From positions 59,148,001 to 59,212,000 of the forward strand of contig OZ024743.1 in NCBI GenBank assembly GCA_964016885.1: a DNA stretch of 64,000 nt. The letters run 5' to 3'. Shown here piece after piece: positions 9,420 through 61,524 of the stretch (positions within the stretch are counted from its first letter, which is position 1; each line of letters opens with the position of its first letter). This DNA comes from Eledone cirrhosa. Lineage: Eukaryota. The position numbers and the translations under genes are program-made. The notes beneath the pieces were generated by a model. That model was given only the letters and a program-made list of their open reading frames with translations. It ran no database searches and was not told the origin of the DNA.

Positions 9420-9710
<291 letters not shown>

Positions 9711-9711
<1 letters not shown>

Positions 9712-9895
9712 GGAACCAGTAAGACCCCGACAGCTGAGCTCAAGCCGTTTCGACGGCTAATTCAGAATTAGCCGTCGAAACGGCTTTAGCTCAGCTGTCG
9801 GGGTCTTACTGGTTCCTATTACCCACTCTACTACCCCAAGTATTGAGTACTTTGGTGCGTTATGGTCCACCTGGTTCCTTACCACATTTCCTTCG

Positions 9896-9898
<3 letters not shown>
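9711..9898 (+). mobile_element. ~190-bp fold-back mini-element (family H) carrying the 3' half of an HHR
   Basis: Near-perfect palindrome 9711-9817 plus an ~80-bp tail. Contains GAAA-CAGCT/CGGCT-type stem III-TC-GGGGTC. Confidence 0.85.
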
Positions 9899-9929
<31 letters not shown>

Positions 9930-24889: not shown

Positions 24890-26537
24890 GAAAATAGTGA
24901 GAAAAAGACGAATATTAGGAAGAAAAATATATATTTTTCTCTTTTTTTCTGAGTAAGAAAATTTTAAAAATAAAATGTTTTACTTTGCGTGAAGTGTTAA
25001 GGTATTAGTTAATTAATTAATTTATTTATTTACTGATTTATATATTTAATAATTGTCTATTACCGGTTTCAGCATTTTATGCATTATCAAAGGGGGGAAT
25101 TTGTATTGGTATAAACTGTTGGAAAGAAAATAATGTGATGTTAAGGAAATGGGAAAACAAGAACAATACTATTTACAACCAAGGTTTTTGAAGTAAAAAG
25201 AAAAAAGGAGGTAATGTGGAACATGATAAGGTAATAGGAAAGAAAGCATATTATTATTTACAGGCATAGTTCTTGAGGATAAGCAATTCAAAATGTGTTA
25301 TTATGGCAAGAGCGCTTGGTTGGTCCATAATGGAGGCAAATGGTAGTCTGGGGTTTGATATGATTTCCCTTTTTATAGAGTTAATATGGAGGGGGAGGTA
25401 ATTCAGGGTTAATATGGAGGGGCAGGTAATTCATAGAAGAATTAAAGAACACACTTATCAGCAGAAACTATCCACCATCCATAATCAACAATGGATTCCA
25501 ACATGCCCTAAAACTCAATATCCAGGAACTCAGACACCCCAAACCCAGGAATGAACTGCAACAGAAAACTCTACCATACATCTCCACACACAGCCCCCTC
25601 AAGAATGAGGCATTCGATACCATCCTCCAGAACATTCCTTAACTAAAAAGAGACCCAAGAATGAACAAAATCCTCCAAACCCCCAATATCATAAAGAGCA
25701 AAAGACAACATAAATCTATAAAAAACATCCTCACACAAGCCAAAATCCAACCAACCTTCACAATGAACCCTACAGTAAAAGAATGCGGAAGGCCCAACTG
25801 TGGTACATGCATAAATCTAATAGAAGGTTCAACATTCCATTTTAAACAAGGACAACATTTCACAGTTAAATACAACTTTACATGTGCATCTGAAAACCTA
25901 ATCTAGGTTTTGGCCTGCTCAGGTTGTCGAGAGCACTACATAGGACTGACAAAAAACAGCCTCCGACAAATTATGACCGTCCATAGATCATAAATCAAAA
26001 TACAGGAATACAGAAAGATTGCTTTTAGTGAACATATCACCAATTGTACATCTAACCAAAATTCAAACTTAAAAATTTTCCCCATTTACAAATTCATAGA
26101 CAACGCTTCTTTCAGCCACCGTAATAATAAGGAAACGTACTTCGTTAACACATTCCAACTTCTACTTAATGGACTAAACTTCGGACTAAACTAAATCTGG
26201 AACGAATAATGTACCAAAGTCCAAATTCCCATGTTTCTAAGGAGTTACCTCGCTAACACCCTACCTAATCTTTTTTCTTATATAAATGAATTACCTCCTC
26301 TCATTTCTCTCTCCCTTACCTGACCACCCTGAATTACCTCCCCTCCATATTAACTCTATAAAAAAGGAAATCATATCAAACACCAAACTACCATTTGCAT
26401 CCATTATGGACAAACCAAGTACTCTTGCCATAAGAACACATTTTGAACTGCTTATTCTCAAGAACTATGCCTGTAAATAATATTTTTCTTTCTTTCCCAT
26501 TACATTATCATGTTCCACATCACACCCCCTTTTTACT

Positions 26538-26540
<3 letters not shown>
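24890..26540 (+). mobile_element. PLE 3' fragment (Neptune-like C-rich linker and GIY-YIG) preceded by an inverted copy of its 3'UTR with a decayed HHR (25055-25096, -)
   Basis: CGRPNCGTC...FTCASENLI*..CSGC..HYIGLT. Inverted arms ~25190-25405 and ~26330-26540. Confidence 0.8.
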
Positions 26541-26572
<32 letters not shown>

Positions 26573-26596
26573 GTTTAATGTTTACTTGTTCCGCTC

Positions 26597-26667
<71 letters not shown>

Positions 26668-26672
<5 letters not shown>

Positions 26673-27596
26673 GACGTAAAATAAGAAAATTATAAAGATT
26701 AATTTACTAAAATTTTACTCCAACTAATTAGTTTCTGAAAGGTAATAAACATGGTTACCGATCGGAACAACATGGAGAAAAGTCCTTTCGTCATCAGGGA
26801 GATCTATTCTGAGCTAAGTTCCCAGGCAATGTGTGGACACAGGGAACTTATACAAAATAATTCAGTGGATGGAAAAAAGCGAGCGAGGACTAAATTCCAG
26901 GACATTGAAAAAATCACTGCCTACTTGGTCGGTGGCAAATTCAAAAGAATCAATCACGTGTCATTGAGGTTAATCAGTGAGGAGTGGAGTGCTAATAAGA
27001 CAGTCGCCTGACAATTACTATGAACCATAGCACTAGTTTTGGCAAATTTTTGCTCAACAAAATAATTTGGAGATTATTATAAAGAATTAGTATATCTAAC
27101 AACATATATATACAGATGCATACCTATGCTAGCAAATATATAGGTTTTGTCTTAGTAACTTTGTGGTTCAATGCAAGGGGTTGCAGAACAATTATATGAA
27201 AGACGTAAAATAAGAAAATTATAAAAATTAACTTACTTACTATGTCCTGGAACTTAGTCCTCGCTCGCTTTTTTCCATCCACTGAATTATTTTTGTATAA
27301 GTTTCGTGTGTCCACGCATTACATGGGAACATAGCTGAGAATAGATCTCCCTGATGACGAAAGGACTTTTCTCCATGTTGTTCCGATCAAAAACCATGTT
27401 TATTCCCTTTCAGAAACTAATTAGTTGGAGTGAAATTTTAGTAAGTAAGTTAATTTTTATAATTTTCTTATTTTACGTCTTTCATATAATTGTTCTGCAT
27501 CCCCTTGCATTGATCCACAAAGTTACTAAGACAAAACCTATATATTTGCTAGCATAGGTATGCATCTGTATATATATGTTGGTAGATATACTAATT

Positions 27597-27600
<4 letters not shown>
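26668..27600. mobile_element. ORF-less HHR element: 529-nt unit (more than one unit on -, partial unit inverted on +)
   Basis: tgaaagacgtaaaataag recurs at 26668 and 27197. HHRs at 26718-26801 (-) and 27347-27430 (+). Confidence 0.85.
27347..27430 (+). ncRNA. Hammerhead ribozyme with long stem II insert
   Basis: CTCC CTGATGA C GAAAGG-(~40 nt)-CCTTTC A GAAA CTAATTAG TT GGAG. Confidence 0.8.
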
Positions 27601-27645
<45 letters not shown>

Positions 27646-28087
27646 CGGAACAAGTAAACATCAAACAATATTTTAAATAAATTAAAATACGATTTAAATA
27701 TTTACCTCTTCTAGTGTTATGACCGAAGGTTTGGCTAATCAAGAGATTGGAAATTCAGAGAATTTCTAATGGAAAGATATAGCTCCTCAGATAGATTTTC
27801 CACACCTACTAGATATAGATCCACGTAGATATGGATGTATCTCTTTCTGGCCGGTGAATGAATCAAGCCGTTAAAATGACCACCACACAAATGGGCCGTT
27901 AGCGGGAATAATAGACTTGTCGATATTTCATGTTACTAGAAATAGCAGCATGATACACCATTTTTTTTCTCAACATTAAGGAGAATTCAGATAAATGATA
28001 TAGATATTCCAGTAGGTACTAAGTACCCACGGAAATATATATATAGAGAGATTGATTGATTGAGGGAGTGTGAATGACCAAAGGACA

Positions 28088-28735
28088 GGATTGGTAGTAT
28101 CAGTAGAGGGTCGGACGCCATGCTTTCCAGCATAGTTACGTCCCTTTATGATCTGAGTTCAAATCCCGCCGAGGTTGACTTTGCCATTCATCCTTACGGG
28201 GTCGATAAAATAAAGTACCAGTAATGCACTGGGTAATTTGCTGGCCTTGTGCCTAAAGTAGAAACAATTATTTAAACTCTCTAGGGTCGGACGCCATGCT
28301 CTGCAGCAAAGAGTTACGGCCCTCTATGGTCTGAGTTCAAATCCCGCCGAGGTTAACTTTGCCTTTCACCCTTACAGCGTCGATAAAAGAAAGTACCAGT
28401 ATTATACTGGGTATTTGCTGGTCTTGTGCCAAAAGTAGAAAGAGTTATTTAAACTCTCTGGATTTCGCAAAATATATATTTTTATTTGAGAAGATCAGAT
28501 ATTTTTCTGCAAAAATTTGATTGAATTATTTTGCACTATATTTAGAGCAGTGGATTGGCAGCATCAGTAGAGAGTCGGACGCCATGCTTTCCAGCATAGT
28601 TATGTCCCTTTACGGTCTGAGTTCAAATCCCGCCGAGGTTAACTTTGCTTTTCATCCTTTCGGGGTCGATAAAATAAAGTACCCGTAATGTACTGGGTTA
28701 ATTGCTGGCCTTGTGCCAAAAGAAGAAACATTTAT
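28088..28735 (+). mobile_element. Cluster of three SINE A copies (28088-28270, 28283-28448, 28547-28735)
   Basis: TSD-like duplications ttatttaaactctct (~28268/28446) and ttattttgcactat (28526/28732). Confidence 0.88.
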
Positions 28736-28856
28736 TTTGCACTATTTTGTTTCCACATGTATTTTTTGAAAATGTTATTTATTCATTATCAAAATTAAAT
28801 GATAGCATTCTATTTGTAGGTGGGCTCCCGTCATCTGGCAACCAATATTTTTAGAC

Positions 28857-31303: not shown

Positions 31304-31369
<66 letters not shown>

Positions 31370-31371
31370 TT

Positions 31372-32595
<1,224 letters not shown>

Positions 32596-43492: not shown

Positions 43493-43548
<56 letters not shown>

Positions 43549-43550
<2 letters not shown>

Positions 43551-44155
43551 CGAAGGAAATGTGGTAAGGAACCAGATGGACTATAACGCACCAAAGTACT
43601 CAATACTTAGGGTAGTGGAGTGGGTAATAGGAACGAGTAGAACCCCGACGGCTGAGCTCAAGCCGTTTTGACGGCTAATTCTGGACTAAATGAACATTTT
43701 TATCCTGGTAAATTGATAGCCGAGCTTCTCAAGGGGTAATTCCATATATGGTAAAAGTGATTGTTACAAGAATTGGTCAATAGTTTTTTGTTGAGACACA
43801 TAATTCTATCATGGCATTTTGTGGGAGGAAGGGGTAGCTGAACTTGCCAGTAGAAGAAAGAGGGAGAGGGAGTGGAGGAAACCCAGTCGTGCGTTGAAAG
43901 TGACAACTACAGTAGAATCCTAAGGATAAGAGGTCCAGAGAAGTATACTAGAGAGGGGGAGGGGGAGGAAGTCGAAACAATAAGTAAATCTATATAGAAA
44001 AATATAAGAATGTTAAAAATATTTTTTAAAAAAACACAATTTCTAGTTACTATTCCCCTACCACAATCATCAAATCTCTCACTGGCACTGCTAAACTATA
44101 GAAAAGTTTAATAGGTGGGACGGAACACCAAATACGAGATTGTAGTGAAAAAACT
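43549..44155 (-). mobile_element. Family H copy that retains upstream sequence and a complete but decayed HHR (43642-43737)
   Basis: Sense: ACCCC TTGAGAA GCTCGGCTA-(~40 nt)-TAGCCGTC AAAA CGGCT..AGCCG TC GGGGT. Confidence 0.7.
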
Positions 44156-52458: not shown

Positions 52459-53634
<1,176 letters not shown>

Positions 53635-53699
53635 TATATATATATATATATTGTAGTAATAAATATATATATAGTAATATTTTAAATAGTATTATTTTA

Positions 53700-53750
<51 letters not shown>

Positions 53751-53754
<4 letters not shown>

Positions 53755-53951
53755 AACAGATCCAGGACCCCAACGGCTGAGCTCCGGCCGTTTCAACATC
53801 TAGATCCAAACGTTTGGATCTAGCTGTCGAAACGGCCGGCCCTCAGCCATCGGGGTCCTCGCTCTTTTCCTATTACCCACTGTACTACCCTAAGTATCGA
53901 GTACTCTAGTGCGTTAGGGTCCACCTGGTATCTTCCCACACTTTCTTTGTT

Positions 53952-53952
<1 letters not shown>
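53751..53952 (+). mobile_element. Family H fold-back mini-element (divergent subfamily)
   Basis: Palindrome centred on aaacgttt (53808-53815) plus tail; flanked by (TA)n. Confidence 0.8.
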
Positions 53953-54014
<62 letters not shown>

Positions 54015-58796: not shown

Positions 58797-58881
<85 letters not shown>

Positions 58882-58899
58882 TTATATATATACACATAT

Positions 58900-59145
58900 A
58901 CAAAGAATGAGAAACGAGGTGGACCACAACGCACCAGAGTACTTGTTGCTTAGGGTAGTAGAGTGGCTGATAGGAGAAGAGTCAAAGAGACAGGAGCCCG
59001 ACGGCTGAGCTCCGGCCTTTTGGTCAGTTAGAGCTAGCAGTCGAGATGGCCGGAGCTCAGCCGTCAGGGTCCTGACTATTTTCCTATAAATATAGATATA
59101 ATATATTAAGAATGGACGTAAAATAGCGATGATGATGATGATATA

Positions 59146-59208
<63 letters not shown>

Positions 59209-59395
59209 CGAGGGAAAAGTGGTAATGAACCAGGTGGACCATAACGCACCAAAGTACTCAATACTTAGGGTAGTAGAGTGGGTAATAGGAGTAAGTAAGA
59301 CCCCGACGGCTGAGCTCAAGCCGTTTCGACGGCTAATTCTGTACAGAATTAGCCGTCGAAACGGCTTGAGCTCAGCCGTCGGGGTCTTACTTACT

Positions 59396-59448
<53 letters not shown>

Positions 59449-59651
59449 CGAAGGAAATGTGGTAAGGAACCAGGTGGACCATAACGCACCAAAGTACTCA
59501 ATACTTAGAGTAGTAGAGTGGGTAATAGGAATGAATAGGACCCCGGCGGCTGAGCTCAAGCCGTTTCGACGGCTAATTCTGGACTCAATTAGCCGTCCAG
59601 AATTAGCCGTCGAAACGGCTTGAGCTCAGCGGTCGGGGTCCTATTCGCTCC

Positions 59652-59654
<3 letters not shown>
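58900..59654 (-). mobile_element. Three consecutive family H fold-back mini-elements (58900-59087, 59207-59400, 59447-59654) separated by (TA)n
   Basis: Each has a long arm and a short inverted arm ending at cctat or cctac. Confidence 0.85.
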
Positions 59655-59701
<47 letters not shown>

Positions 59702-59705
<4 letters not shown>

Positions 59706-61479
59706 AATTAATGAATCAGTACTCCAATGTTACTAGGTAGTCGCATTGGATGGAGTCAACCGACGTCGGAGATTGCTCAACGTATAATAAAATATGCTTT
59801 AAAATCCCGAGAAAATATGAAGAAGAAGTTTATGAAACGGAAATGCGGGTATAAAGAATATATTAGGTAACAATTGTTTCTATAGTGTGTGGGTTACCTA
59901 TACCTCGCTATTTGTATAATATAAAAATATTATCATAAATCGTAGGTACACTGTCGTCAGACCTTTATGGTAGAATGATAGGAAAATATTTTATACACTA
60001 GATACGAGAGAAAGTAGGAGGTAGGAAGGGAAGAGGAAGAGGGAAGTGAGTAAGGGGGAGGGAGTCATAGAATTCAAGACTGTCAGAGCAGTAGACATTG
60101 TATAGAAGAAAATGTTTTGGCAGCAGTTAGCCAAATGAGGCGTGTTAGGGTTGGCAGGGGAAGTAAATCCTTCTAGTGGTGTTGTTTGGGCAAAATTTAG
60201 TTAAAGCGGTCAATGTAGTACAGAATTACAGACAAGTTATTGGGGCTATTATAGTAGCAGGATATTTCTAAAGGGTCTAAAAAACAGTGTTTATTGCTAT
60301 TATTATAAAAAGCCATATCGTGTGTATAAACATATAAAAATATGAAATAAAAATAAAAATAAAAATAAAAATAAAAATAAAAATTTGCAAATGGTGGTGT
60401 AAAAAGATAACATTACATGCATTTAAAAAAAGAAAAAGTCGTTTTTAAACGATGGTTACAGTAAAGTGAACGTTCAATTTTGCTATTCAAAAGTTTGTTT
60501 TCCGACGTTAAAATGCAGTATATCTCAATATTGCATAATTTACAAAATCGTTGATTTTGCCAATATGCTGGCGCATCGCAATAATTTGCCAATCAAGGGA
60601 GAATGCTTGATTGTTCTTCCGAAGCTGCCAGGCTTTGTCGGCGAGGGTTGTTACGGAGCGCATTTTCTCATGCTTGATCGAAGATCGATGTTGATATAGG
60701 CGAGCTTTGAAAGATTTTGCGGTACATCCGACGTAATACCATTTGTTGGTTCCGGAATTTATTGTACATCGGTAGACAATATTGCGTGCTAGGCATTGGT
60801 TATTCAATCGGCACGAACCTGGTTTAGTGCAGTTACAATTATTTTTATGTTTTGCAGTAGTATCCTGGATAGTTTGGTGGGGTTGTAGCTGCGTGTTAGT
60901 GCGTTGTATGTCACTATGTTGGTGCGCTGTGTCATTAGGGATGTATTTCTTTAGTATTGTTTAGTTGAGTTTTTTTTATAATAATAGCAATAAACACTGT
61001 TTTTTAGACCCTTTAGAAATATCCTGCTACTATAATAGCCCCAATAACTTGTCTGTAATTCTGTACTACATTGACCCCTTTAACTAAATTTTGCCCAAAC
61101 AACACCACTAGAAGAATTTACTTCCCCCGCCAACCCTAACACGCCTCATTTGGCTAACTGCTGCCAAAACATTTTCTTCTATACAATCTCTACTACTCTG
61201 ACAGTCTTGAATTCTAAGACTCCCTCCCCCTTACTCACTTCCCTCTTCCTCTTCCCTTCCTACCTCTTACTTTCTCTCGTATCTAGTGTATAAAATATTT
61301 TCCTATCATTCTACCATAAAGGTCTGACGACATGGTGTGTTCTCTTACAGTGTACCTACGATTTATGATAATATTTTTTTATTATACAAATAGCGAGGTA
61401 TAGGTAACCCACATACTATAGAAACAATTGTTACCTAATATATTATTTATGCCCGCATTTCCGTTTCATAAACTTCTTC

Positions 61480-61484
<5 letters not shown>
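59702..61484 (-). mobile_element. 5'-truncated PLE (GIY-YIG and 3'UTR) with an ~500-bp inverted 3'UTR copy
   Basis: CNCTKPGSCRLNNQCLARNIVYRC..YYVGCTAKSFKARLYQH. Arms ~59816-60310 and ~60975-61484. Confidence 0.88.
61320..61436 (+). ncRNA. Hammerhead ribozyme with ~90-nt stem II domain (inverse copy at 59865-59964 carries a small deletion)
   Basis: AGGT CTGACGA C ATGGTGTG...CATACTAT A GAAA CAATTG TT ACCT. Confidence 0.75.

Positions 61485-61524
<40 letters not shown>

What the first reader, a model, noticed from the sequence alone, without database searches (positions are those of the whole stretch)
26668..27600. Second, unrelated ORF-less HHR unit (529 nt) with the same >1-unit plus inversion architecture
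Seen: a 529-bp period (26668 vs 27197), one HHR per unit with stem I CUCC/GGAG, a 10-nt palindromic stem III (ACUAAUUAGU) and an ~40-nt stem II insert, embedded in (TA)n. It shows no visible similarity to the 467-nt unit. Inference: several independent retrozyme-like families coexist in this genome, so this would be a system and not a one-off.
Basis: partly seen in the sequence, partly recalled or inferred. Interest (0 to 1): 0.8.

Follow-up and report, generated by a model that had tools for sequence, protein, structure and literature searches.

The report
Two-armed hammerhead repeat with Penelope ends
This is one copy of an abundant 533-base non-coding repeat carrying a predicted self-cutting RNA motif, and the way its copies end suggests that a Penelope-type jumping-gene enzyme wrote it into DNA from both sides of a break, likely by copying a small RNA circle.

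Summary
The hammerhead (HHR) and the unit are real, but this locus is not a tandem dimer. It holds a 1.08-unit arm (minus strand) and an opposed 0.68-unit arm (plus strand) between (TA)n runs; its two HHRs lie on opposite strands and only 45 nt repeat directly at 529. The family unit is 533 nt, with 2,156 exact hits of a 25-nt HHR piece in the genome and head-to-tail arrays up to about 15 units. Arms end at two sites 119 nt apart; of 76 two-armed insertions with both ends at these sites, 73 use one of each. Both arms share subfamily alleles. A sister family, the 467-nt family and a young coding Penelope-like element (PLE) in the same genome follow the same rule. No coding PLE was attached, and no partner was identified. 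Reading: a non-autonomous, PLE-mobilised non-LTR retrozyme with a PLE-type HHR. Cleavage, expression and circular RNA are untested. Earlier scan notes report the same architecture for 310-, 422- and 467-nt families; a sequence look-up found no note on this family.

The parts
26668..27242 (-). Long arm, 1.08 units (unit positions 488-533, then 1-533); outer 3' end at site A (26668) against (TA)n
   Evidence: 96% to family majority
26718..26801 (-). Type I hammerhead, copy 1; predicted cut between 26722 and 26721
27242..27603 (+). Opposed arm, 0.68 unit (unit positions 292-533, then 1-119); outer 3' end at site B against (TA)n; joined head-to-head to the long arm at 27242
27347..27430 (+). Type I hammerhead, copy 2: stem I CUCC/GGAG, core at 27351, extra C before and extra A after stem II, 41-nt insert, palindromic stem III, GUU; predicted cut after 27426
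27485..27603 (+). 119-nt 'tail' between end sites A and B, with a predicted long hairpin (about 27537-27590)
27078..27196 (-). Internal copy of the same tail sequence, as the start of the full unit in the long arm
   Evidence: 27078-27242 vs 27439-27603, 98.2%
27193..27237 (-). 45-nt terminal redundancy, direct repeat of 26664-26708 (the 529 offset)
26597..26667 (.). (TA)n run at the site A end
27604..27642 (.). (TA)n run at the site B end
26572..26597 (-). Inverted 26-nt copy of the right-hand flank (27642-27667), one mismatch; probably templated during repair (inference)

Best explanation
This is one insertion of a non-coding 533-nt hammerhead repeat family whose copies end at two fixed sites beside (TA)n, and it was likely written into the chromosome by a borrowed Penelope-type reverse transcriptase-endonuclease working from both ends of a break, probably on a circular RNA of one unit. 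Proposed cycle: (1) a genomic copy with two same-strand hammerheads is transcribed (inferred); (2) the hammerheads cut out one unit, likely as a dimer through the palindromic stem III, and a host ligase closes it (inferred from other retrozymes); (3) a PLE protein, likely a dimer, binds near the hairpin between sites A and B, cuts both strands in (TA)n and primes one cDNA at A and one at B (end pattern shown, enzyme inferred); (4) each cDNA runs a variable distance, often beyond one unit (shown); (5) the two cDNAs are joined head-to-head, mostly over short overlaps (shown), giving two opposed arms.
For: Ends: in 152 non-redundant insertions, 99 have two opposed arms; of the 76 with both outer ends at A or B, 73 have one of each, 2 A+A, 1 B+B; the other 23 have at least one end elsewhere; 49 of 52 single arms end at A or B. 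(TA)n follows 116 of 124 A ends and 95 of 99 B ends but only 10 of 28 other ends. Genome-wide, 1,454 exact B ends run into TA and 1,326 read on into the next unit. Same rule in an 84%-identical sister family (15 of 19 two-armed loci), in the 467-nt family (9 of 10) and in a young coding element with an intact 821-aa frame, an HHR and ends 91 nt apart (4 of the 4 loci with both ends in view at its two sites). One template per insertion: opposed arms agree at 765 of 823 subfamily sites (479 expected if unrelated), tandem units at 691 of 747 (430 expected); no strongly crossed quartet among 833 and 511. More than one unit: 31 of 57 insertions in the least biased sample have an arm over 533 nt, 14 of 57 have two same-strand HHRs; arrays of 3.9, 6.3 and about 15 units. 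RNA-level constraint: core intact in 202 of 237 full HHRs while the insert drifts (83-87% column conservation vs 96-99% on its 3' side); one compensatory stem II change, A-U 175 vs U-A 26; circle folds at z -4.9 (majority sequence, 40 shuffles). Literature: two internal RT start sites bounding the tail, both strands cut and extended, predicted dimer (PMC11167929); circle model proposed (PMC4209133, PMC7229834).
Against: No RNA evidence of any kind: cleavage, expression and circles untested. No autonomous partner found: three coding families checked share no sequence with the unit. The HHR is atypical: extra A before GAAA, GUU triplet, long insert; the window's plus copy folds 4.2 kcal/mol better in a non-HHR shape, the family majority 1.2; the isolated 96-nt HHR is no more stable than shuffles (z +0.58). 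Long arrays carry variants shared by subsets of units (12 in the 6-unit array, 36 in the 15-unit array), so some length comes from later local duplication or a mixed template, not one pass round a circle. 3 of 33 tandem and 3 of 43 opposed pairs are discordant, so template changes occur. The window's own arms differ by 6.9%, only modestly closer than unrelated copies. No A-to-G excess that would mark an edited RNA step. Both ends sit at TATA-like spots, whereas PMC11167929 reports start sites without homology to the target. Loci were chosen by searches for unit sequence, so length figures are biased upward.
Confidence: 0.6

Rival explanations
1. Same PLE-driven, two-site priming, but the template is an uncut linear read-through transcript of genomic multimers (or several RNAs joined by template jumps); the hammerhead is weak or acts late, and arrays grow by local duplication.
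For: In the anole PLE, HHR mutants did not affect insertion and uncut RNA was the main substrate (PMC11167929). Multimers exist as possible sources. Subset-shared variants in arrays and a few chimeric insertions. Eight of nine Xenopus retrozyme dimers did not cleave in vitro (Li 2026).
Against: No pair of insertions inherits the same pair of unlike units (0 strongly crossed quartets of 511 tandem quartets); some young multimers have units 0-0.5% apart; linear templates can only shrink on copying, yet over half of the least biased insertions exceed one unit; HHR core is conserved across subfamilies.
Confidence: 0.27
2. The copies are truncated terminal repeats (solo pLTRs) of a coding PLE that was not sampled; the unit has no life of its own.
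For: HHR type, end sites, tail and target all match PLE pLTRs; most min-HHRs in Schistosoma were read as truncated PLEs (PMC4209133). Only about 180 of some thousands of insertions were inspected.
Against: Arms that pass the unit start always continue into the preceding unit, up to 15 times; 1,326 exact B read-throughs; no shared upstream flank in 52 single arms; an 84% sister family is also non-coding.
Confidence: 0.05
3. The inverted arm is made by fold-back self-priming or DNA repair after a single-ended insertion, not by a second RNA-primed start.
For: Self-priming was proposed for PLE inverted repeats (PMC3846280). A few loci fit: symmetric junctions (L003, L140) and inverted copies of flanking DNA (L003, L075; the window).
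Against: A fold-back copy cannot carry the 119-nt tail beyond the end of an arm that stops at A, nor explain 73 of 76 complementary ends; most junctions are asymmetric (292 vs 488 here).
Confidence: 0.08

Closest known systems
Metazoan non-LTR retrozymes (Cervera and de la Pena 2020, PMC7229834, parts 2-4 of 6 read; Li, Clavereau and Pollet 2026, 10.64898/2026.07.22.740005, parts 1-3 of 5 read)
   Same: Non-coding, low-GC (35%) unit with one type I HHR, monomers to multimers, thousands of copies, coexisting with PLEs; 533 nt lies within the 51-972 bp range of Li 2026.
   Different: HHR is of the PLE type, not canonical, with a 33-41-nt stem II insert; unit longer than the 150-450 bp of Cervera 2020; most copies are dispersed one- or two-armed insertions with fixed A/B ends, which the parts read do not describe for retrozymes; cleavage and circRNA unshown here.
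EN+ Penelope-like elements and their pLTR/tail architecture (Craig 2021, PMC8557442, passages read; Frangieh 2024, PMC11167929, parts 1-2 of 4 read; Arkhipova 2013, PMC3846280, passages read)
   Same: Partial tandem plus adjacent inverted 5'-truncated copy, tail at one end only, two internal end sites downstream of the HHR, (TA)n target, no visible target duplication.
   Different: No RT/GIY-YIG frame; tail 119 nt instead of 30-40 (91 nt in the coding element examined here); no sequence link to a coding family found.
PLE minimal hammerheads (Cervera and de la Pena 2014, PMC4209133, parts 1-2 of 4 read)
   Same: Short helix I, long helix II, unpaired base between positions 9 and 10.1, G10.1-C11.1, palindromic helix III; pairs on opposite strands 100-700 bp apart were noted in Schistosoma.
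   Different: An extra A between 11.1 and G12, a long variable insert in loop II, a 10-nt palindrome, and residence in a free non-coding unit.
Non-autonomous Chlamys elements such as MRC1 (Craig 2021, passage read)
   Same: Non-coding PLE dependants with pLTRs and head-to-tail multicopy insertions.
   Different: Chlamys mostly lack canonical HHRs and generally share 3' sequence with an autonomous family; neither holds here.

Membership tests
Non-LTR retrozyme | One type I hammerhead per unit | tested here: met
   202 of 237 full HHR pieces have an intact core; stems supported by one compensatory change
Non-LTR retrozyme | Head-to-tail tandem units with at least two consecutive complete HHRs (family level) | tested here: met
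   36 of 152 insertions, 14 of 57 in the least biased sample; arrays to about 15 units
Non-LTR retrozyme | Two same-strand HHRs at this locus (Li 2026 'active' copy) | tested here: not met
   HHRs at 26718-26801 (-) and 27347-27430 (+) are opposed
Non-LTR retrozyme | No protein coding | tested here: met
Non-LTR retrozyme | No LTR, primer-binding site or polypurine tract | not tested
   No LTR-like layout seen in the arms; PBS and PPT not searched
Non-LTR retrozyme | Canonical HHR shape with loop 1-loop 2 contacts | tested here: not met
   PLE-type extra base, extra A, long insert; mussel retrozymes also lack the contacts, so not strictly required
Non-LTR retrozyme | Self-cleavage | not testable with these tools
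   needs in vitro transcription
Non-LTR retrozyme | Accumulates as linear and circular unit-length RNA | not testable with these tools
   needs RNA data or northern blot; folding only
Non-LTR retrozyme | Target duplications longer than 4 bp when present | tested here: inconclusive
   none of 8 nt or more outside TA in 151 insertions; duplications inside (TA)n cannot be seen
Autonomous EN+ PLE | Single frame with RT and GIY-YIG endonuclease | tested here: not met
   no attached frame
PLE-mobilised element | Partial tandem with adjacent inverted 5'-truncated copy | tested here: met
   99 of 152 insertions two-armed; 33 of 57 in the least biased sample
PLE-mobilised element | Tail at one end only (two internal start sites) | tested here: met
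   73 of 76; tail 119 nt, longer than the 30-40 bp in print
PLE-mobilised element | Microsatellite (TA)n target | tested here: met
   211 of 223 A/B ends
PLE-mobilised element | Sequence shared with the pLTR of an autonomous partner | tested here: inconclusive
   none in three coding families; other families not sampled

The most novel reading that the evidence does not exclude
A free 533-nt hammerhead circle parasitises Penelope enzymes: a PLE dimer grips one circular RNA at a hairpin, starts two reverse transcriptions 119 nt apart from the two ends of a (TA)n break and rolls round the circle. The unit has evolved for a long time as an RNA-selected replicon with no sequence tie to any coding element, alongside several unrelated circles using the same route. 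The genome would then record, copy by copy, the retrozyme integration step that the papers read propose but do not show.
Probability: 0.45. Interest if true: 0.75.

Novelty: new variant of a known kind. Interest (0 to 1): 0.52.

Why it matters
How animal retrozymes get into genomes has been proposed (PLE enzymes, circular templates) but, in the papers read, not shown. Here a non-coding HHR unit carries the exact PLE footprint, with a countable rule (one A end, one B end per insertion) that matches the two start sites and two-strand priming seen in vitro for an anole PLE. It gives defined start sites, a candidate binding hairpin and an intact young PLE protein in the same genome for a direct test. 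The parts are each known; the family and the quantified link are what is new.

Tried and rejected
Rfam: no hammerhead model matches this HHR. Expression: no RNA holder listed; three runs of unrecorded kind from one sample were laid and show the 533 step-back joint and TA loose ends but, as contigs, say nothing on RNA. Neighbouring PLE fragment at 25198-26538 as parent: no DNA similarity in 40 loci of that family. Wide spacings of 2.3, 2.7 and 3.3 kb as possible coding elements: a segmental triplication, a 6.3-unit array and two separate insertions. L143/L243 PLE next to a copy: the copy sits in a TA run about 300 nt away in opposite orientation. Young 821-aa element as partner: no similarity beyond TA-rich noise; it has no Pfam or PDB hit and is called a PLE from its weak match to the RVT_1-bearing L181 frame (E 1e-5), its layout and recalled motifs. 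5' ends at the HHR cut site (476): none starts at 471-478; apparent clusters at 393-404, 430-447 and 476-495 exceed a uniform null but that null is wrong for short arms and they border variable columns, so not used. RNA-editing signature: not found (A>G 2 vs T>C 8 shared; 46 vs 66 private). 53-codon frame as peptide: rejected. One search's loose alignments of the sister family overshot into TA and were redone. Not-in-print statements rest on searches and 81 of an open-access library; supplements of the cited papers were not read and may list cephalopod families.

Full report
Observation. The region 26668-27603 lies between two (TA)n runs. Self-comparison shows two long inverted matches (26664-26905 with 27242-27488, 91.9%; 27078-27242 with 27439-27603, 98.2%) and one direct match of only 45 nt at offset 529. 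A motif scan finds the hammerhead twice, on opposite strands. The locus is a 1.08-unit arm on the minus strand joined head-to-head at 27242 to a 0.68-unit arm on the plus strand. It is not a tandem HHR dimer.

Family. The window lies in a 3.0-Gb animal genome (probably a cephalopod, which is my inference and the wording of earlier scan notes). All 40 scored candidates matched the whole or nearly the whole unit at 93-96%. The modal unit is 533 nt. A 25-nt HHR piece has 2,156 exact matches, control 0. After removing 7 structural duplicates from 159, 152 insertions were analysed; arrays cut by a locus edge were left out. They were picked by searches for unit sequence; the 57 taken in chromosome order are the least biased.

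Ends. Arms have variable 5' starts but end at site A (unit end) or site B (119 nt into the next unit). Of 99 two-armed insertions, 73 have one A and one B, 2 A+A, 1 B+B, and 23 have at least one end elsewhere; single arms end at A 30, B 19, elsewhere 3. (TA)n follows 211 of 223 A/B ends and 10 of 28 others; no target duplication outside TA was seen in 151. Genome-wide, 1,454 B sites run into TA and 1,326 read on. Of 89 simple junctions between arms, 53 overlap by 1-26 nt, 5 are blunt and 31 have 1-44 extra bases (alignment overlaps may include chance extension). The 119-nt stretch between A and B folds into a long hairpin whose variants mostly keep pairing.

Controls in the same genome. A sister family (529 nt, 84% identical) keeps both sites: 15 of 19 two-armed loci have A+B, 4 have one end elsewhere (the query ended at A). 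The unrelated 467-nt family shows complementary ends in 9 of 10 complete two-armed loci. A young coding element with many intact 821-codon frames, a 3,918-nt unit and an HHR ends at two sites 91 nt apart, complementary in all 4 of 18 fetched loci where both outer ends fell at these sites within view; its frame starts just after the second site. The order HHR, A, tail, B is the same as in the 533-nt unit, but there is no sequence similarity.

Template. Pieces of one insertion share subfamily alleles: 765 of 823 sites for opposed arms and 691 of 747 for tandem units, against 479 and 430 expected; 3 of 43 and 3 of 33 insertions are discordant; no quartet shows two insertions inheriting the same unlike pair. 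In the window the arms share three derived alleles but differ by 6.9%. 31 of 57 least biased insertions exceed one unit; arrays reach 3.9, 6.3 and about 15 units. These facts fit a circle. Against a pure single pass, the two longest arrays have variants shared by subsets of units. No 5' end maps to the predicted cut site, and no editing signature was found.

Hammerhead. The core is intact in 202 of 237 pieces and the insert is the most variable part of the unit (the 3' half was partly selected by the search pattern, the CUGAUGA half mostly not). Stem II has one compensatory change, and 200 of 205 motif-extracted HHRs have GUU. An unpaired base after position 9, G10.1-C11.1 and a palindromic helix III match PLE minimal HHRs (PMC4209133); an extra A before GAAA is atypical. 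The palindrome is predicted to pair as a dimer (-9.0 kcal/mol) but not as a hairpin. The HHR fold costs 1.2 kcal/mol in the family majority and 4.2 in the window's plus copy. Activity is therefore predicted, possibly weak.

Coding. No frame over 73 codons in the unit, no Pfam hit above cut-off, no constraint on the 53-codon frame, no shared upstream flank in 52 single arms, no attached PLE frame. The PLE fragment just left of the locus (25198-26538) is a separate family.

Mechanism. Shown: two fixed complementary ends, (TA)n target, one template variant per insertion, arms longer than one unit, conserved HHR core, same footprint in a coding element. Inferred: transcription, dimer-dependent cutting, ligation to a circle, binding and two-ended priming by a PLE protein. 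The two start sites, two-strand priming and predicted dimer come from the anole element (PMC11167929), where HHR cutting was not needed in vitro; this keeps the linear-template rival alive. I give about 0.87 to PLE-driven two-site priming and 0.6 to the version with a circle.

Comparison and novelty. It works like a PLE pLTR without the frame and fits non-LTR retrozymes at family level on the sequence features tested, with RNA features untested (PMC7229834; Li 2026). Tail at one end and inverted truncated copies are described for PLEs (PMC8557442; PMC3846280); opposite-strand HHR pairs and the circle idea date from 2014. In searches of the open-access library I found no description of this family or of the complementary-end rule in a non-coding HHR unit; supplements were not read. 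Earlier scan notes give the same reading for other families in this genome; I reached it before that call, and none matched this sequence. Verdict: real, a new variant of a known kind, interest 0.52.

Noticed in passing
window 52557-53636: 467-nt HHR family, very young (99-100%), many multimers, two end sites about 75 nt apart used complementarily in 9 of 10 complete two-armed loci.
   Followed up: partly
window 25198-26538 and further left: 3' part of a coding PLE (CxxC linker and GIY-YIG motifs, recalled as Neptune-type) with an inverted terminal copy; large family, 10,362 first-look candidates; cut at its right end by the TA run beside the finding.
   Followed up: partly
window 59815-61486: Another opposed pair of HHR-like motifs (59960 minus, 61324 plus) with palindromic stem III and GUU, arms 94.6% alike.
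   Followed up: no
window 35629 (+) and 13232 (-): Single HHR-like motifs with TATATA stem III; motifs like the first recur in other loci.
   Followed up: no
L269-L286 (e.g. G000:C3:26522500-26532400): Young coding Penelope-like family with dozens of intact 821-codon frames, 3.9-kb tandem and inverted copies, own HHR; no Pfam or PDB hit. A good source of enzyme for tests.
   Followed up: partly
G000:C1:94665900-94674300 (L111, L112): Array of about 15 units of a 521-nt subfamily plus a short opposed arm ending at A; units 0.3-7.9% apart with signs of local duplication.
   Followed up: partly
window 26572-26597; L003; L075: Inverted copies of flanking DNA on the other side of the insertion (26, about 228 and 46 or more nt), suggesting templated repair.
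   Followed up: partly
window 28088-28737 and at least ten other places: Abundant 180-190-nt SINE-like repeat, here in a partial tandem.
   Followed up: no
window 58824-59703, 9660-9927, 43496-43691, 53701-53968: About 240-nt TA-anchored repeat with a near-perfect internal palindrome; often next to copies of the 533-nt family in other loci.
   Followed up: no
window 31363-32498: Direct repeat of 534 nt at spacing 603, 94.8% alike, between TA runs; no HHR found by the motif scan.
   Followed up: no
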